Assembly (NCBI GenBank): GCA_000002445.1
Contig: CM000208.1
Location: 448,001 to 512,000, forward strand
DNA: 64,000 bases
Source: Trypanosoma brucei
Lineage: Eukaryota
Reading direction: 5' to 3'
Both the position numbers and the translations under genes were made by a program. How positions within the stretch are numbered: the first letter of the stretch is position 1; each line of letters opens with the position of its first letter. Positions 19,165-27,124 of this stretch are shown in pieces. The notes below the pieces were generated by a model. It was not told the origin of the DNA. It searched no databases and was given only the letters and a program-made list of their open reading frames with translations.

Positions 19165-19338
19165 AAGAAAGCATCATCTGAACCACACAAAGGAATAAGA
19201 GCACACCACTACCACAGAGATGCTCTAGTGGAGCACACGAACGCCCCCTTTCCATTCTCAACTGCAGCGAAAGAAAAGGGGAAAATAAAACTGTCAGCAC
19301 ATACGTACCTTTTTATTTGTGGTAGATGGAGCGCAGAA

Positions 19339-19361
19339 ATATATATATATATATATATATA
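19339..19361. repeat. (AT)11 microsatellite. Similar (AT)n tracts at 45392-45409 and 54614-54632
   Basis: Direct read. Confidence 0.9.
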
Positions 19362-21052
19362 ATCAGTAGACCCGCGTTGTTCCCCGTTGCCATTTTTCCG
19401 CATCCGTATGTGAGACCTTTCTAACAAAACAACGGCATGATAATCTATGAGGCCAGGCCAGTACCGTTGAAAGGGGTCTACCACTACACCATGCCTTGCA
19501 ACTAGGATGCGCGATATCAGCCCCGGTGCCCTTTAAGAAAAGGCGTTCCGGTCTAATGTGAACAAGGCGAGCAAGTGGATGCATCAGCGCAATGGGAGAA
19601 GAGTGGTTGATAGGAAAGCTCCACCCCCTCCAACACAAAAAGGTATGCGGCACATGGCTCGTGAAATTACAAAAAAGATCCTCCACATACCTTAAGGGGG
19701 ATGCGTCAAGTAGTCGTCCCGAAGGGACGTGCACACAAACATTTTACTTCTAAACATCAGTGCTGAGGAAGCTATCGCATTCAATTACGGTTTGTAACCG
19801 TATTGGCCGATACAAATTACCTGTGGGGGCTCACAAAATTATCGGTGAGGTTCTTTGTGCCGGTGTTAAAGCCACGGGGACGACAAGAGCGTACCTTCAC
19901 TAACGGCTCTCTGCTACTGGGCCGTTCCAAGGCTCTGTGTCTTGGCGCGCCTAGATGCGAAGTCACTCACGGCACCAACATCCAGATTTTCTTTTCTTAA
20001 ACCCTCGACGGCTCTTGAAGCAGCTGGTACCAAATCTGTTTCTTTCACTCACCGCGCCACCTTCGCGGTCTCAGCCTCATACGCCAACATCCTTTTTGAA
20101 CCCTCATTGATTAGGTTTGGGTTTGCCTTAAAAAAATAAGCTCCCCACACAGCCACTTACATCAACTTCACCCCATCGCTTTTTTACGTCCTCGGTATTT
20201 TACATTGTGTCATTATAATTTTCATCGTGAATAGAAGTGATACACCGCATGTTATATGCACCGAGTTGCCTCCCAACCAATATACTCACTAACTTAACCC
20301 CGATAACCACCTTCCCATCCTGTTAGACCCCCCCACGCTCTTCGCAGGTGCTGCTCTTTTTTTTTTTTGCCAATACTAGGCACGCAAACAGCGGGTTGCC
20401 ACTGTCAAGCACCGGGAAATTGTTATTAACTTGAAGAATCTGTCGCCCACGTCACGGACTTGAACTATTAAATATCTAATCCACGCAAACGCGGAGAAGC
20501 AAACCAACAAAGAACCCCAAGGCCCTCTTTTTCTCCCAGTTGTGGTTTCGAACGTTGAAGAACTTCCATTTCGCTGTTACCTCTGGTTTACCTCTCCCTT
20601 TTTTTTTTCAACGAGATCACGCGCACGGGTAACCTTACCTTTGGTAATGTTGACAACAAACCCTCATCTTCCACACCGTGTTCATCCTACGTAGTGGAAA
20701 CTCGCTTCTAAAAAAAAAAAATGTAGTCTCCACAGAAATGTAAGAGCTGTTTATTACACTCATCGATGTCGAGGATGCCCCATGCTGAAGTTGCCCACGC
20801 AGTGCAGATGTTAAGTTTGAAAACGTATGCTCGCAACTCCGAATAACAGTGACGACAAACGGTGCCTGCGTCAGGAAGTTTGAACCATTCCCCTCACAGT
20901 CCACAATCCTCCTCACGTAATAAGATAGGTATAAAGTTTAGCGCCCACAGTTCAATCATAAATCGGCATGGAAATGTGCAATAAGGACATAGAGTCATTC
21001 AGAAACAACGGAACATAATCCCAGCATACGGCGGCTTCAGCCAGCCAGCCAT

Positions 21053-21053
<1 letters not shown>

Positions 21054-21088
<35 letters not shown>
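21054..21088. repeat. (CA)17 microsatellite
   Basis: Direct read. Confidence 0.95.
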
Positions 21089-23438: not shown

Positions 23439-24287
23439 ACCACCGCACAAAAAACATACCGTATCCGATGCGGCACAGCCGCCTGCACACGAAAAATAGA
23501 AGTACAAACAAACTTTTGGTCACCACACGTCTGCTCCTTTGGAAGCAGCAGCGCTCAGGGTACACCAAGCTACTTCACAACACCCGTTCATACAAGTAGC
23601 AGAACGAAATAAATGAGTAGCACCACGGTGCAGGACGTGAAGCAACGCAACCTAACCCACACAACGAAGTTTTGTCGCGGCAAGCGTCCCATCACGAGAA
23701 TAATAAAAGAGGAGTCCAATTCACCAGCAACTGGACGGACGCCCCATACCATGCCCAGCTCTTCCTTCCACCGCCCCACTCGTTGTGGTAACGACCCAAA
23801 CGATGGAGCCCTTTCCGACGGGGAAGTTCCTGCGGCACAACAGCCACACCCCGTAGAGCTCGCCAAGCTCCACACACACCAACACAGGGGTCCTGAAACC
23901 ACGAGATCTAACGGGGAGGGGCACAGCTCCCAACCTTCTTTCCTGAGTGGGAATAAAGCCTTAGTTAGCCTATCCAAAACAGGCGGTCAATCAGATTAAT
24001 GTTCGCGTGGGCCCCAAGCAAATCATGCCAAAAAAACTATGTGACCTCCGAATTGTTTACTTCGGAGCCCCCCCCCCCACCTCCGTTTTGTTTACCACCA
24101 GCTCTGACCAAATTCCTCCTCCCAAACGAGTGGCACCCCCTACTTCGGCACACCTGAGCGGTCCGCGACTGGTGTATTCCCCAAACCAGGCAAGGCTTCG
24201 GGGCCCGCTCAACCACGCGGTAGGGCACAGAGTCGTCGGGAGGGAGAAGTCATTCATGCTCGCCTTACAGAAGCACGTATTGGTCCT
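23439..24287. repeat. Left arm of a large near-perfect inverted repeat (~849 bp)
   Basis: Reverse complement of 25447-26300. Boundaries placed by direct comparison at both ends. Only a handful of substitutions and a 1-nt homopolymer length difference (~99% identity). ORFs on both strands of the arm are mirror duplicates and probably non-coding. Confidence 0.9.
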
Positions 24288-25446
24288 TTTGTTCACCTAT
24301 TTATGAGATGAGGCAGCTGTGGAGTTTGGAACGCCAGAACCTGGAGGAGGTGATTCGCAGCGTGGGAAAAGAGCTGCCGTTTTTTTTTTTTTTACCGTCT
24401 GTGTGAGACCGCCACCCTAACCACTGTTGACGCGATCTGACGTTGTGCCGGTGTTAAAGCACTGCCTTTTGGAGGCTATGCGGTGTGCTTTCCGACGGCC
24501 GAGTTGAGCGTCGACTGCAGTCACCATCAGCAGAGCATTTAAGTGAAAATGAACCGAAGGGACGGGAAGGTAGTTACTACCGTTTGTTTCTGGCGGTGGA
24601 ACTCGTACACACCACTGCCTTTAGATGCCACACACACACACAGGAACGTTAAGATAACCGCCAGAAATAGTCTACAATTAAAGCCTTTCGAGCCATTCCC
24701 TCATCGCACACACGCTTCGTTTTTCTTAGTGTAGGAGCCTCCCTCTGCCCCCTTGATTTCTTCTGTTTGAAAACATGCACCGGGCATCCTTCTTGCTGAA
24801 AACCACTTGGCTTCAATACAAATCAAATTCCTATACGGAGTCACAACCGAAGTTAGGACCCTCATGCAAGAGAAGGACCACACGTGTCCCTCTGCTAGTT
24901 CACTCCCGCGTGATAAACAGAAGATGCCCAAGAGGAACCGGACCCGCACGAATTGCAACATCGTCCGAACTAAGCCCTTTTCGCGGCAACCTACTATTGA
25001 GAAGTGCTTTGTAGCTGTTCGCTCCGGTTCGATCGCATTACCTCAGTTCTCAAAAGAACTTCAGCCCTGCACGATGATTTCGCTGTCGAGTGCCCCCAAC
25101 ACGTTCGTGGACAATGACGGCCTGGTGGAATAAGTACATTTTTTTTTGACTTTTCGTCACCTAGAGGGGGAAAGGATAGTATTTCAATGTTGAATCGACG
25201 GGCCCTCGCAGGTATTCCAAATCCCCTATTTTGCACTGCGGTGGCTAACCGTCCTTCATTATGGCAACTGCAGAGCAGTTCTCAAAGGCACCGTCTTCCA
25301 CGCCCATACTGGTTTGAATGAGGAGGCCTGTGGCGAACCGCACCATCTTTTATCGTTCGTTTTTACTCTTCAATATGCGTCCAACACAGGAAGTTAAGTA
25401 ACATCATCGTATTGCCATGCCCCCCAAAATAATAATAAGGGGTTAT

Positions 25447-26300
25447 TAAAAGGACCAATACGTGCTTCTGTAAGGCGAGCATGAATGACTTCCCCCTCCC
25501 GACGACTCTGTGCCCTACCGCGTGGTTGAGCGGGCCCCGAAGCCTTGCCTGGTTTGGGGAATACACCAGTCGCGGACCGCTCAGGTGTGCCGAAGTAGGG
25601 GGTGCCACTCGTTTGGGAGGAGGAATTTGGTCAGAGCTGGTGGTAAACAAAACGGAGGTGGGGGGGGGGGGCTCCGAAGTAAACAATTCGGAGGTCGCAT
25701 AGTTTTTTTGGCATGATTTGCTTGGGGCCCACGCGAACATTAATCTGATTGACCGCCTGTTTTGGATAGACTAACTAAGGCTTTATTCCCACTCAGGAAA
25801 GAAGGTTGGGAGCTGTGCCCCTCCCCGTTAGATCTCGTGGTTTCAGGACCCCTGTGTTGGTGTGTGTGGAGCTTGGCGAGCTCTACGGGGTGTGGCTGTT
25901 GTGCCGCAGGAACTTCCCCGTCGGAAAGGGCTCCATCGTTTGGGTCGTTACCACAACGAGTGGGGCGATGGAAGGAAGAGCTGGGCATGGTATGGGGCGT
26001 CCGTCCAGTTGCTGGTGAATTGGACTCCTCTTTTATTATTCTCGTGATGGGACGCTTGCCGCGACAAAACTTCGTTGTGTGGGTTAAGTTGCGTTGCTTC
26101 ACGTCCTGCACCGTGGTGCTACTCATTTATTTCGTTCTGCTACTTGTATGAACGGGTGTTGTGAGGTAGCTTGGTGTACCTTGAGCGCTGCTGCTTCCAA
26201 AGGAGCAGACGTGTGGTGACCAAAAGTTTGTTTGTACTTCTATTTTTCGTGTGCAGGCGGCTGTGCCGCATCGGATACGGTATGTTTTTTGTGCGGTGGT
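25447..26300. repeat. Right arm of the inverted repeat (~854 bp); spacer 24288-25446 (~1.16 kb)
   Basis: See left arm. The duplicated ORF translations (e.g. the 128-aa MSSTTVQDVKQ... on + at 23613 and on - at 25740) confirm the reverse-complement relationship. Confidence 0.9.
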
Positions 26301-27124
26301 GAGTGGTCGTGCCAGGGTGTTGCTGGGAGCAATGTTGCATGTCTTGCGGTGGTGTTCGCCTGGCCTGATGTTGTCATACTCCTTTATTTTGTTATGACAT
26401 GTAACGCTTGTTGTGATGTTGGCATTTATTTTTGTAAGTGGCTGGTGTGTGAAAGGCGCCACTTTCAATAAGTCCCCCCTTTCTGATGTGTTACATTCCC
26501 TTGTTTGTATTTCTGCCGACCGGTTATAACATTGGTATGCAGGGTTACACACAGGTTGTTTCTTTGGCTTGGTGAATGTATGTTGATGTCGAAAAACCGA
26601 TGTTTACAAGAGTGGTAACCCTTTTTTCCCGGTGGCCTAGACGACACTAGCTCACTGTAGTATATATATGCGTGTGTGCGCATGTGTGGTGATATTGAAA
26701 CTCTTCTTGATGTTATCAAGTGCGTAGGTGTGGGACGCATGGACACTCGCACACATCCTTTTCAGCCTGTATTTACTCAAACTAAAATGTTTTTTAGTAG
26801 AATTATATTTTTAATGTTGTGGTGCTAAGGAAAAAAAAAAAGGATGTACTGGTGTTGTATGCAGGTGCTGCTAAACGCATGGTCGGGACAGTTGTTACTT
26901 TGCTGATTTTCTTGCTGTGCTGTATGGGCACTTGCTTGGTGTAGGCAGGTGTGCAGGCCATGGATGCTGTTGTCTTATGTGCTATATTTCTCTCCTAAGT
27001 CAGTTTTTTCTCCAGTACTTTGTTACATTAGGGAAGGGGCTAGTGGATTTGCGCGCAAACTTTATTTTCCCTTCATTTTCTTGAAGAGATCAATAAACGG
27101 TGTAACACACAGTAGTGGCTTGAA

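What the first reader, a model, noticed from the sequence alone, without database searches (positions are those of the whole stretch)
19165..27124. Mirror-image strand composition around the inverted repeat: candidate divergent strand-switch / bidirectional Pol II start region
Reading the + strand, 20000-24290 is markedly G-poor (C/A-rich) while 25450-27100 is C-poor (G/T-rich). So each putative coding strand is GT-rich leading away from the centre. The flanking ORFs are in divergent orientation: the minus-strand ORF ends at 19164 and the + cluster starts at 27125. GT-rich, oligo-G-containing sequence upstream of polycistrons is the described signature of T. brucei Pol II transcription start regions. 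Here it surrounds a palindromic core. If the minus-strand ORF (18229-19164) is spurious, the region is instead a head-to-tail termination/re-initiation gap. Composition was judged by eye, not computed.
Basis: partly seen in the sequence, partly recalled or inferred. Interest (0 to 1): 0.6.

Follow-up and report, generated by a model that had tools for sequence, protein, structure and literature searches.

The report
Known divergent Pol II start region

Summary
On the + strand, 20000-24290 is G/T-poor (GC skew -0.20, AT skew +0.14) and 25450-27100 is G/T-rich (+0.19, -0.24), with a neutral 1143-nt centre. About half of the right block and a fifth of the left are arms of an 860-nt inverted repeat, which are mirrored by construction. 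Outside the arms the left block is still extreme (z = -7.5); the right block is only high (z = 2.8).

The window is T. b. brucei TREU927 chr10:448,001-512,000. Kolev et al. 2010 (Table S14) already list Tb10.70.6110->6130 (-) and Tb10.70.6040->5340 (+) as a divergent pair of putative Pol II units. Tschudi et al. 2012 already list the palindrome as Tb927_10_IR6, a source of Dicer-2-dependent small RNAs. Wedel et al. 2017 describe the GT-rich coding-strand signature.

The + unit's first gene also begins a divergent unit in T. cruzi, T. theileri and L. infantum. The minus unit holds only two T. brucei-specific ORFs of doubtful coding status, and the nearest conserved genes on both sides are + strand.

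Small additions from this work: IR6 sits at the centre of the start region, its spacer is flipped between genome assemblies, and its arms evolve in concert.

Verdict: correct interpretation, already known.

The parts
16911..18228 (.). Convergent junction between the end of the upstream + unit (Tb10.70.6150) and the tail of the short minus unit.
   Evidence: Kolev Table S1 gives the last coordinate for Tb10.70.6150 as 464,910, which is window 16910; I read that column as its mapped transcript end. The + strand G+T fraction drops from 0.585 (16340-16910) to 0.464 here. No conserved gene lies in this stretch.
18229..19023 (-). ORF Tb10.70.6130 (264 aa from the ATG), the last annotated ORF of the minus unit. 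Coding status is doubtful.
   Evidence: Identical to the TREU927 protein EAN77605. Its only hit among 5.8 billion proteins is its own T. brucei-group cluster. No Pfam match. Codon score is 0.09-0.10 bits/codon, against 0.15 +/- 0.03 for conserved genes and up to 0.15 for antisense stretches. It has 4 nonsynonymous and 3 synonymous variable codons among 4 strains. It is not in Kolev Table S2 of untranscribed ORFs.
19363..19584 (-). ORF Tb10.70.6110 (73 aa), the first annotated ORF of the minus unit.
   Evidence: Exact match to the TREU927 protein P0014. Listed as the first ORF of a minus 'Divergent' unit in Kolev Table S14. Annotated as T. brucei spp.-specific.
19750..23438 (-). Minus-strand GT-rich block outside the repeat; candidate leftward half of the transcription start region.
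   Evidence: + strand G+T 0.428, z = -7.5 against same-length background. Minus-strand hits to GT_416 promoter k-mers are more than 2 SD above the window mean. No Pfam domains in the longest stop-free segments. No similarity to other species' junctions or to the right flank.
21054..21088 (.). (CA)17.5 microsatellite, which reads as (TG)n on the minus strand.
   Evidence: Tandem Repeats Finder. It contributes to the minus-strand GT k-mer peak at 20.5-22 kb.
23439..24297 (-). Left arm of inverted repeat Tb927_10_IR6. It is GT-rich on the minus strand and carries an 11-nt C run at 24068-24078 (a G run on the minus strand).
   Evidence: Repeat detection and blastn. G+T 0.399 on +. G/C runs. It matches Tschudi et al. 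2012 Table 3: chr10, 467-478 kb, 853 bp, 99% identity, 8 mismatches.
24298..25440 (.). 1143-nt spacer of IR6. It is compositionally neutral and inverted in two other assemblies.
   Evidence: G+T 0.492. It aligns end to end on the opposite strand in DAL972 (98.7%) and in GCA_003543875.1 (99.0%), while both flanks are collinear. No internal palindrome. No Rfam or tRNA hit.
25363..25740 (-). Annotated ORF Tb10.70.6070, straddling the spacer/right-arm boundary. Probably spurious.
   Evidence: Listed in Kolev Table S2 (no detectable transcript) at 473363-473740. Codon score -0.03. No Pfam hit for neighbouring or overlapping ORFs.
25441..26300 (+). Right arm of IR6. It is GT-rich on the + strand and carries a 12-nt G run at 25660-25671.
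   Evidence: It has the strongest + strand GT_416 k-mer signal in the window (25501-26500: 93 hits against 13).
26301..27124 (+). + strand GT-rich block between the right arm and the first gene; the rightward half of the start region outside the repeat.
   Evidence: G+T 0.615, z = 2.8. K-mer enrichment. A compositionally similar GT-rich block lies upstream of the ortholog in T. theileri (G+T up to 0.68) and T. cruzi (0.57-0.58).
27125..28150 (+). Tb10.70.6040, a methyltransferase-domain protein (source name: tRNA N(3)-methylcytidine methyltransferase) and the first gene of the long + unit.
   Evidence: Pfam methyltransferase domains. Names from sources. First ORF of the + 'Divergent' unit in Kolev Table S14. 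Its ortholog is the first + gene at a divergent strand switch in T. cruzi, T. theileri and L. infantum, with conserved downstream gene order.

Best explanation
Window 19.6-27.1 kb (TREU927 chr10, about 467.6-475.1 kb) is a divergent RNA polymerase II transcription start region.

How it most likely works:
- Rightward transcription of a long polycistronic unit starts in the + strand GT-rich 25.4-27.1 kb segment and runs into Tb10.70.6040 (27125) and beyond.
- Leftward transcription starts in the minus-strand GT-rich 19.7-24.3 kb segment. It covers a short unit holding only two lineage-specific ORFs (Tb10.70.6110 and Tb10.70.6130), then meets the end of the upstream + unit at about 17-18 kb.
- Direction is set by which strand is GT-rich, as shown for such elements by Wedel et al. 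2017.
- The innermost 860 nt on each side are the two arms of the known inverted repeat IR6. The two start regions therefore begin with the same sequence facing outward, each with an oligo-G run.
- Two outward transcripts would carry identical, not complementary, arm sequences. The published DCL2-dependent small RNAs therefore need transcripts that cross both arms and fold back. The most likely source is the minority of inward (antisense) initiations typical of these promoters, or read-through.
- The arms recombine with each other, which homogenises them and flips the spacer.

Shown here: the composition, the anatomy, the synteny, the flip and the concerted evolution of the arms. Taken from papers: the transcription-unit classification and the small RNAs. 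Inferred: the source of the hairpin RNA.
For: - Skew and its sign change.
- Strand-specific enrichment of published start-region k-mers.
- Kolev et al. 2010 Table S14 lists the minus and + units as 'Divergent', and the text reports 5'-triphosphate reads at every divergent unit, sense above antisense.
- Coordinates tie the window to TREU927.
- Wedel et al. 2017: GT-rich 10-mers on the coding strand drive direction-dependent transcription, with about 4:1 sense to antisense.
- The + unit start is conserved in T. cruzi, T. theileri and L. infantum. The first two also have a GT-rich block upstream.
- IR6 identity and its small RNAs (4387 reads; 6% of wild type in dcl2-/-).
- A read-through RNA folds into a hairpin of about 850 bp (849 of 859 arm bases paired arm-to-arm; -2173 against about -940 kcal/mol for shuffles).
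- Spacer inverted in two other assemblies, and five sites where both arms of one genome share a state that differs from both arms of another genome.
Against: - I did not see locus-level TSS, Pol II or histone-variant tracks. Table S14 is a list of 'putative' units and may lean on annotation.
- The minus unit has no conserved gene. Its ORFs are confined to the T. brucei group, score at the bottom of the coding range and show 4 nonsynonymous to 3 synonymous changes.
- The body of Tb10.70.6130 has + strand-type composition (G+T 0.561 on +), unlike the rest of the proposed minus unit.
- The list of convergent units from the same laboratory has no entry between 281 and 610 kb on chr10. The junction at about 465-467 kb was therefore not counted as convergent.
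- Reynolds et al. 2016 state that siRNA loci, including inverted repeats, are enriched in H3.V, a termination mark, which sits oddly with a start region. That statement is general and was not shown for IR6.
- The right block outside the arm is not compositionally unique in the window.
Confidence: 0.85

Rival explanations
1. Functionally this is a head-to-tail termination and re-initiation gap. Only the + side is a productive promoter. The left block's minus-type skew is a relic of the ancestral divergent region, or the trace of non-coding upstream antisense transcription. The two minus ORFs are not genes.
For: - The conserved genes on both sides are on the + strand.
- The ancestral state at this unit start is a true divergent switch with real minus-strand genes, which T. 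brucei lacks here.
- The minus ORFs are lineage-specific and weakly constrained.
- No convergent unit is listed at this position.
- The SPARC paper notes that hypothetical ORFs annotated inside start regions are not joined to polycistrons.
Against: - Kolev Table S14 lists the minus unit as divergent, and the two ORFs are absent from the table of untranscribed ORFs.
- The left block shares no sequence with other species' junctions, so it is not a preserved relic.
- Its skew is stronger than that of any transcribed unit in the window (z = -7.5).
- Even if the RNA is non-coding, initiation would still be bidirectional, so this refines the best explanation more than it replaces it.
Confidence: 0.12
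2. The mirror composition is only a by-product of the inverted repeat: one skewed sequence copied in reverse. It says nothing about transcription.
For: The arms make up 860 of about 1650 nt of the right block and 860 of about 4300 nt of the left block, and they are mirrored by construction.
Against: - The skew continues for 3.7 kb beyond the left arm (z = -7.5) and 0.8 kb beyond the right arm (z = 2.8).
- The outer flanks share no detectable homology with each other.
Confidence: 0.03
3. The left block is a degenerate retroelement or other insertion whose own composition gives the skew. Retroelements are common at trypanosome synteny breaks.
For: - This is a synteny breakpoint.
- The T. vivax locus has reverse-transcriptase ORFs just after the orthologous unit end.
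Against: - None of the 20 longest stop-free segments has a Pfam match.
- No tblastn or blastn similarity to the T. vivax element or to any fetched locus.
- No dispersed repeat shared with the rest of the window.
- I could not compare with ingi, RIME or DIRE reference sequences.
Confidence: 0.03
4. The skew switch reflects a replication origin. ORC1 binds at unit boundaries in T. brucei, and strand asymmetry is set by replication direction.
For: One abstract states that transcription start sites are also ORC1 binding sites (PMC6344857). The cumulative GC skew has its minimum in the spacer.
Against: - Throughout the window skew follows the coding strand of the units, and it switches again at the other catalogued divergent region at the left edge.
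- This fits transcription-linked asymmetry.
- Origin activity was not tested and would not exclude promoter function.
Confidence: 0.05

Closest known systems
Divergent Pol II transcription start regions (dTSRs, divergent strand-switch regions) of T. brucei. Sources: Kolev 2010, Wedel 2017 and Staneva 2022 as read here; Siegel 2009 from my own knowledge, since the paper was not held.
   Same: - Two units lead away from a gap of several kb.
- The coding strand is GT-rich on each side, with oligo-G runs.
- The width (about 7.5 kb) lies in the reported 5-10 kb range.
- This very locus is listed as a divergent pair.
   Different: - The minus unit is unusually short (two small lineage-specific ORFs) and abuts another + unit within about 2 kb.
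- The core is a long near-perfect inverted repeat, so the inner 860 nt of the two halves are the same sequence.
Long inverted repeats of T. brucei that give Argonaute-bound small RNAs (IR1-IR7, Tschudi et al. 2012).
   Same: This is IR6 itself: chr10, 853-860 nt arms, 99% identity, 7-8 differences. The published interval of 467-478 kb corresponds to window 19-30 kb.
   Different: In the passages I read, that paper does not place IR6 relative to transcription start regions, report the flipped spacer or report concerted evolution of the arms.
Bidirectional CpG-island promoters with upstream antisense transcripts in mammals. Kolev et al. draw this comparison themselves.
   Same: - Broad, dispersed initiation in both directions.
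- Sense transcripts exceed antisense.
- One direction may give a short, possibly non-coding product.
   Different: - Different sequence signature (GT-rich strand, not CpG).
- Polycistronic output with trans-splicing.
- This is a resemblance in how it works, not membership.
Segments flipped by recombination between inverted repeats, for example plastid genome isomers (from my own knowledge).
   Same: A unique segment between near-identical inverted arms is found in both orientations, and the arms are homogenised.
   Different: Here the two orientations are seen only between assemblies of different strains. Coexistence within one population is not shown, and an assembly error in one genome is not excluded.

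Membership tests
T. brucei divergent Pol II transcription start region | Annotated units on opposite strands leading away from the region | tested here: met
   Minus ORFs lie at 19363-19584 and 18229-19023, and the + unit starts at 27125. They are listed as divergent units in Kolev Table S14. Caveat: the minus ORFs are lineage-specific.
T. brucei divergent Pol II transcription start region | GT-rich sequence on the coding strand of each half (Wedel 2017) | tested here: met
   G+T is 0.40-0.43 on + in the left half and 0.60-0.62 in the right half. GT_416 k-mer hits are strand-specific and more than 2 SD from the window mean on both sides.
T. brucei divergent Pol II transcription start region | Primary (5'-triphosphate) transcripts initiating in both directions | not testable with these tools
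   Available only through the paper's general statement and its table of putative units. No per-locus reads were available.
T. brucei divergent Pol II transcription start region | Enrichment of H2A.Z/H2B.V, H4K10ac, BDF3 and SPARC | not testable with these tools
   No chromatin data were accessible. Siegel 2009 was not held.
T. brucei divergent Pol II transcription start region | The first gene of the unit is a unit start in related species | tested here: met
   This holds for the + side in T. cruzi, T. theileri and L. infantum. It does not hold for the minus side, whose sequence has no counterpart.
siRNA-producing long inverted repeat (Tschudi IR1-IR7) | Arms of at least about 400 bp, essentially identical, on a megabase chromosome | tested here: met
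   Arms are 852-859 nt with 7 mismatches and 1 gap, matching the IR6 entry.
siRNA-producing long inverted repeat (Tschudi IR1-IR7) | Argonaute-bound, Dicer-dependent small RNAs map to it | not testable with these tools
   Published for IR6: 4387 reads, 38% of wild type in dcl1-/- and 6% in dcl2-/-. The fold-back potential of a read-through RNA was confirmed here.
Head-to-tail (non-divergent, internal) start region | Same-strand units on both sides with no opposite-strand unit between them | tested here: inconclusive
   This is true for conserved genes but not for the annotated or published units. The coding status of the minus ORFs is unresolved.
Degenerate retroelement at a synteny break | Recognisable reverse-transcriptase or endonuclease remnants, or similarity to known elements | tested here: not met
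   No Pfam hit in 20 segments and no similarity to the T. vivax RVT_1 region. ingi, RIME and DIRE references were not available.
Recombination-flipped segment between inverted repeats | Both orientations of the spacer exist | tested here: met
   The window has one orientation; DAL972 and GCA_003543875.1 have the other. Outer flanks are collinear and inner flanks match crosswise. Coexistence within a strain was not tested, and assembly error is not excluded.

The most novel reading that the evidence does not exclude
IR6 is not a passive curiosity but the working core of this bidirectional promoter. On this reading, two identical outward-facing GT-rich promoter copies are kept identical by gene conversion around a freely invertible spacer. 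Inward-directed transcripts fold back and are diced, so nuclear RNAi (with H3.V) suppresses transcription across the centre and insulates the two units. If the other six long inverted repeats of T. brucei also sit at unit boundaries, this would be a general design.
Probability: 0.15. Interest if true: 0.6.

Novelty: already known. Interest (0 to 1): 0.27.

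Why it matters
For the scan, this shows that a reader working from sequence alone can correctly call a trypanosome Pol II start region from strand composition. The biology, however, is already in the literature: the divergent units (Kolev 2010), the GT-rich signature (Wedel 2017) and the inverted repeat with its small RNAs (Tschudi 2012).

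The modest additions could interest people who study trypanosome promoters and endogenous RNAi:
- The repeat lies exactly at the centre of the start region.
- Its spacer differs in orientation between assemblies.
- Its arms evolve in concert.
- The + unit start is ancient, while the minus unit is a T. brucei novelty at a synteny break.

Together these offer a natural case for asking how direction and insulation are set at a start region whose two halves begin with the same sequence.

Tried and rejected
- **RNA genes and repeats:** tRNA scan and Rfam, at gathering threshold on the whole window and at E<=1 on 17.0-27.5 kb, found nothing. Tandem repeats gave only a (CA)n microsatellite.
- **Pfam on whole six-frame translations:** I scanned the 20 longest stop-free segments instead, with no hits.
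- **Retroelement relic:** not supported.
- **Older, larger inverted duplication:** the outer flanks share no homology.
- **Skew as a pure by-product of the repeat:** rejected, because it persists outside the arms.
- **Window source:** I first took the window for GCA_003543875.1. I corrected this to TREU927 after finding 99.0-99.4% identity only, an exact coordinate offset and exact identity to TREU927 proteins.
- **TREU927 contig look-up:** failed.
- **Literature dead ends:** a search for the old gene identifiers in main texts found nothing. One search call failed on term length. Siegel 2009 is not held, so the oligo-G statement rests on my own knowledge plus the G runs in the Wedel synthetic promoter. 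A review gave nothing on G runs. The start region tested by Wedel is a different chr10 locus, 801-810 kb. No general promoter motif was available to scan with.
- **Coding status of Tb10.70.6130:** codon-usage and dN/dS-type tests were underpowered and inconclusive.

Full report
**1. The observation**

- On the + strand, 20000-24290 has GC skew -0.197, AT skew +0.140 and G+T fraction 0.417.
- 25450-27100 has GC skew +0.194, AT skew -0.244 and G+T fraction 0.610.
- GC skew is about -0.19 up to 24.25 kb, lies between 0 and -0.16 across 24.25-25.25 kb, and is positive from 25.25 kb on.
- The rest of the window has + strand G+T of 0.537 +/- 0.036 in 500-nt windows.

That part of the mirror image is automatic. 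I therefore tested the flanks outside the arms against same-length background segments.
- Left flank 19750-23438 has G+T 0.428 against 0.540 +/- 0.015 (minimum 0.503; n = 841), z = -7.5.
- Right flank 26301-27124 has G+T 0.615, z = 2.8. This is high but within the background range (maximum 0.631).
- The outer flanks share no homology with each other, so the symmetry there is compositional.

**2. Where the window comes from**

- Flanking proteins carry T. brucei-group accessions.
- Gene coordinates printed in Kolev et al. 2010 give an exact offset of 448,000: Tb10.70.6200 at 454850-456445, the end of Tb10.70.6150 at 464339, Tb10.70.6030 at 476862-477764 and Tb10.70.6070 at 473363-473740.
- The window's 264-aa minus ORF is identical to the TREU927 protein Tb10.70.6130, whereas three other strains differ by 1-2 residues. 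Tb10.70.6110 maps exactly to 19363-19584 on the minus strand.
- The window is therefore T. b. brucei TREU927 chr10:448,001-512,000.
- GCA_003543875.1 (locus L001, labelled T. brucei equiperdum) is 99.0-99.4% identical and so is an independent assembly. The same holds for T. b. gambiense DAL972 (L003) and T. equiperdum OVI (L010).

**3. What is already published for this locus**

- Kolev et al. [quoted passage not shown]
- Tb10.70.6035 is the RING gene at 28406-28726, so Tb10.70.6040 is the methyltransferase at 27125.
- The paper states that 5'-triphosphate reads were enriched at every divergent unit, with sense above antisense.
- Wedel et al. 2017 showed that 10-mers enriched on the coding strand of start regions are GT-rich, include long G and T runs, and drive direction-dependent transcription and H2A.Z deposition.
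- Using their synthetic GT_416 promoter as a k-mer probe, the strongest strand-specific signal in the 64 kb is at this locus. It lies on the minus strand at 20.5-24.5 kb and on the + strand at 25.5-27 kb.
- Tschudi et al. 2012 list seven long inverted repeats in the genome. One is Tb927_10_IR6 (467-478 kb, 853 bp, 99%, 8 mismatches), with 4387 Argonaute-bound small-RNA reads that fall to 6% of wild type without the nuclear Dicer DCL2. By position, length and mismatch count this is the repeat at window 23439-26300.

**4. Surroundings and evolution**

- The long conserved ORFs on both sides are on the + strand.
- From the methyltransferase rightward, gene order is conserved in T. vivax, T. cruzi, T. 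theileri and L. infantum.
- In T. cruzi, T. theileri and L. infantum the ortholog is the first gene of a + unit with minus-strand genes upstream, which is a true divergent switch.
- T. cruzi and T. theileri also show a GT-rich + strand block just upstream of it. None of these regions has an inverted repeat.
- The upstream + cluster is conserved in T. cruzi and T. vivax and ends at the ortholog of window 15467-16339.
- Window 16.4-27.1 kb is thus a T. brucei-specific junction between a conserved unit end and a conserved unit start. It has no protein or DNA similarity to the junctions of other species, no Pfam domain in its 20 longest stop-free segments and no RNA-family or tRNA hit.

**5. The minus unit**

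Evidence that its two ORFs may not be genes:
- They are annotated as 'T. brucei spp.-specific'.
- The only hit to Tb10.70.6130 in 5.8 billion proteins is its own cluster.
- Its codon score (0.09-0.10 bits per codon) is at the bottom of the range for conserved genes (0.15 +/- 0.03, minimum 0.09) and within reach of antisense stretches (maximum 0.15).
- Among four strains it has 4 nonsynonymous and 3 synonymous variable codons, against 2 and 8 in the methyltransferase.
- Its body has + strand-type composition.

Evidence on transcription:
- Neither ORF is in Kolev's table of ORFs without a transcript, whereas Tb10.70.6070 inside the repeat is.
- The list of convergent units from the same laboratory has nothing on chr10 between 281 and 610 kb.

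I conclude that leftward initiation is likely but its product may be non-coding.

**6. The repeat at the centre**

- The arms are the innermost 860 nt of the two GT-rich halves. Each carries an outward-facing oligo-G run: a 12-nt G run at 25660-25671 on + and an 11-nt C run at 24068-24078 on +.
- Two outward transcripts would carry the same arm sequence, not complementary ones. The published small RNAs therefore need RNA that crosses both arms.
- Such an RNA folds into a hairpin of about 850 bp: 849 of 859 arm bases pair arm-to-arm, with -2173 against about -940 kcal/mol for shuffles.
- The likely sources are the minority of inward initiations (about 1 in 5 by Wedel's 4:1 ratio) or read-through. 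This step is inference.
- The 1143-nt spacer aligns end to end on the opposite strand in DAL972 (98.7%) and GCA_003543875.1 (99.0%), while the flanks are collinear.
- In a four-arm alignment that included 40 nt of flank on each side, the outer flanks match left-to-left. The inner spacer boundary matches crosswise in both the four-arm and the six-arm alignments.
- At five sites both arms of one genome share a state that differs from both arms of another genome, which shows concerted evolution.
- The OVI short-read contig breaks near the outer edge of the left arm.
- Whether the flip is a strain polymorphism, ongoing flip-flop or an error in one assembly cannot be settled here.

**7. Verdict**

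The locus is already catalogued as a divergent pair of Pol II units with a known siRNA-producing inverted repeat. What this work adds is small:
- the repeat is the centre of the start region;
- its spacer is flipped between assemblies, and its arms are homogenised;
- the + unit start is ancient, whereas the minus unit is a lineage-specific feature at a synteny break.

Interest is low to moderate. Novelty: already known.

Noticed in passing
window 1-4400: A second divergent region lies at the left edge. + strand G+T is 0.473 in 1-2995 and 0.567 in 2996-4400, a 14-nt G run sits at 2996-3009, and the + cluster starts at 4401. It matches the pair Tb10.70.6250->6830 (-) and Tb10.70.6220->6150 (+) in Kolev Table S14. 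It serves as an internal control for the skew signature but is weaker than the main locus.
   Followed up: partly
window 37001-38000 (intergenic, 36467-38037): This is the only other place in the window where + strand hits to the GT_416 promoter k-mers exceed the mean by more than 2 SD (76 against 13). AT skew is about -0.25. Kolev's table lists no internal start site here.
   Followed up: no
window 24298-25440 compared with L003 and L001: The spacer of the inverted repeat has opposite orientation in TREU927 compared with DAL972 and GCA_003543875.1, and the arms show concerted evolution. This may be a real inversion polymorphism or an assembly error in one genome.
   Followed up: partly
window 18229-19023: The body of ORF Tb10.70.6130 is GC-rich (0.58) and has + strand-type skew (G+T 0.561 on +), the opposite of the rest of the proposed minus unit. 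Long ORFs overlap it on both strands (18239-18715 + and 18703-19362 +).
   Followed up: partly
window 16747-17547: This 266-aa + strand ORF has a low codon score (0.025). It starts just upstream of, and mostly lies beyond, window 16910, which I read as the mapped transcript end of Tb10.70.6150. It has no Pfam match and is probably not a gene.
   Followed up: partly
L012 9222-13593 and 16778-21149 (T. vivax GCA_021307395.1 SOPI01000304.1): A 4372-nt, 100% identical inverted repeat, with one arm running to the end of the fetched locus, duplicates the last genes of the orthologous upstream cluster in reverse with a 3184-nt spacer. It is either a recent palindrome or an assembly artefact.
   Followed up: no
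L013 15368-19210 (T. vivax): Minus-strand ORFs, one with a reverse-transcriptase domain (RVT_1), follow directly after the end of the orthologous upstream cluster. A retroelement therefore sits at the equivalent unit end in T. vivax.
   Followed up: no
window 8553-8563 and 16614-16624: 11-nt G runs on the + strand lie in intergenic stretches inside or at the end of the upstream + unit, so long G runs are not confined to start regions in this window.
   Followed up: no
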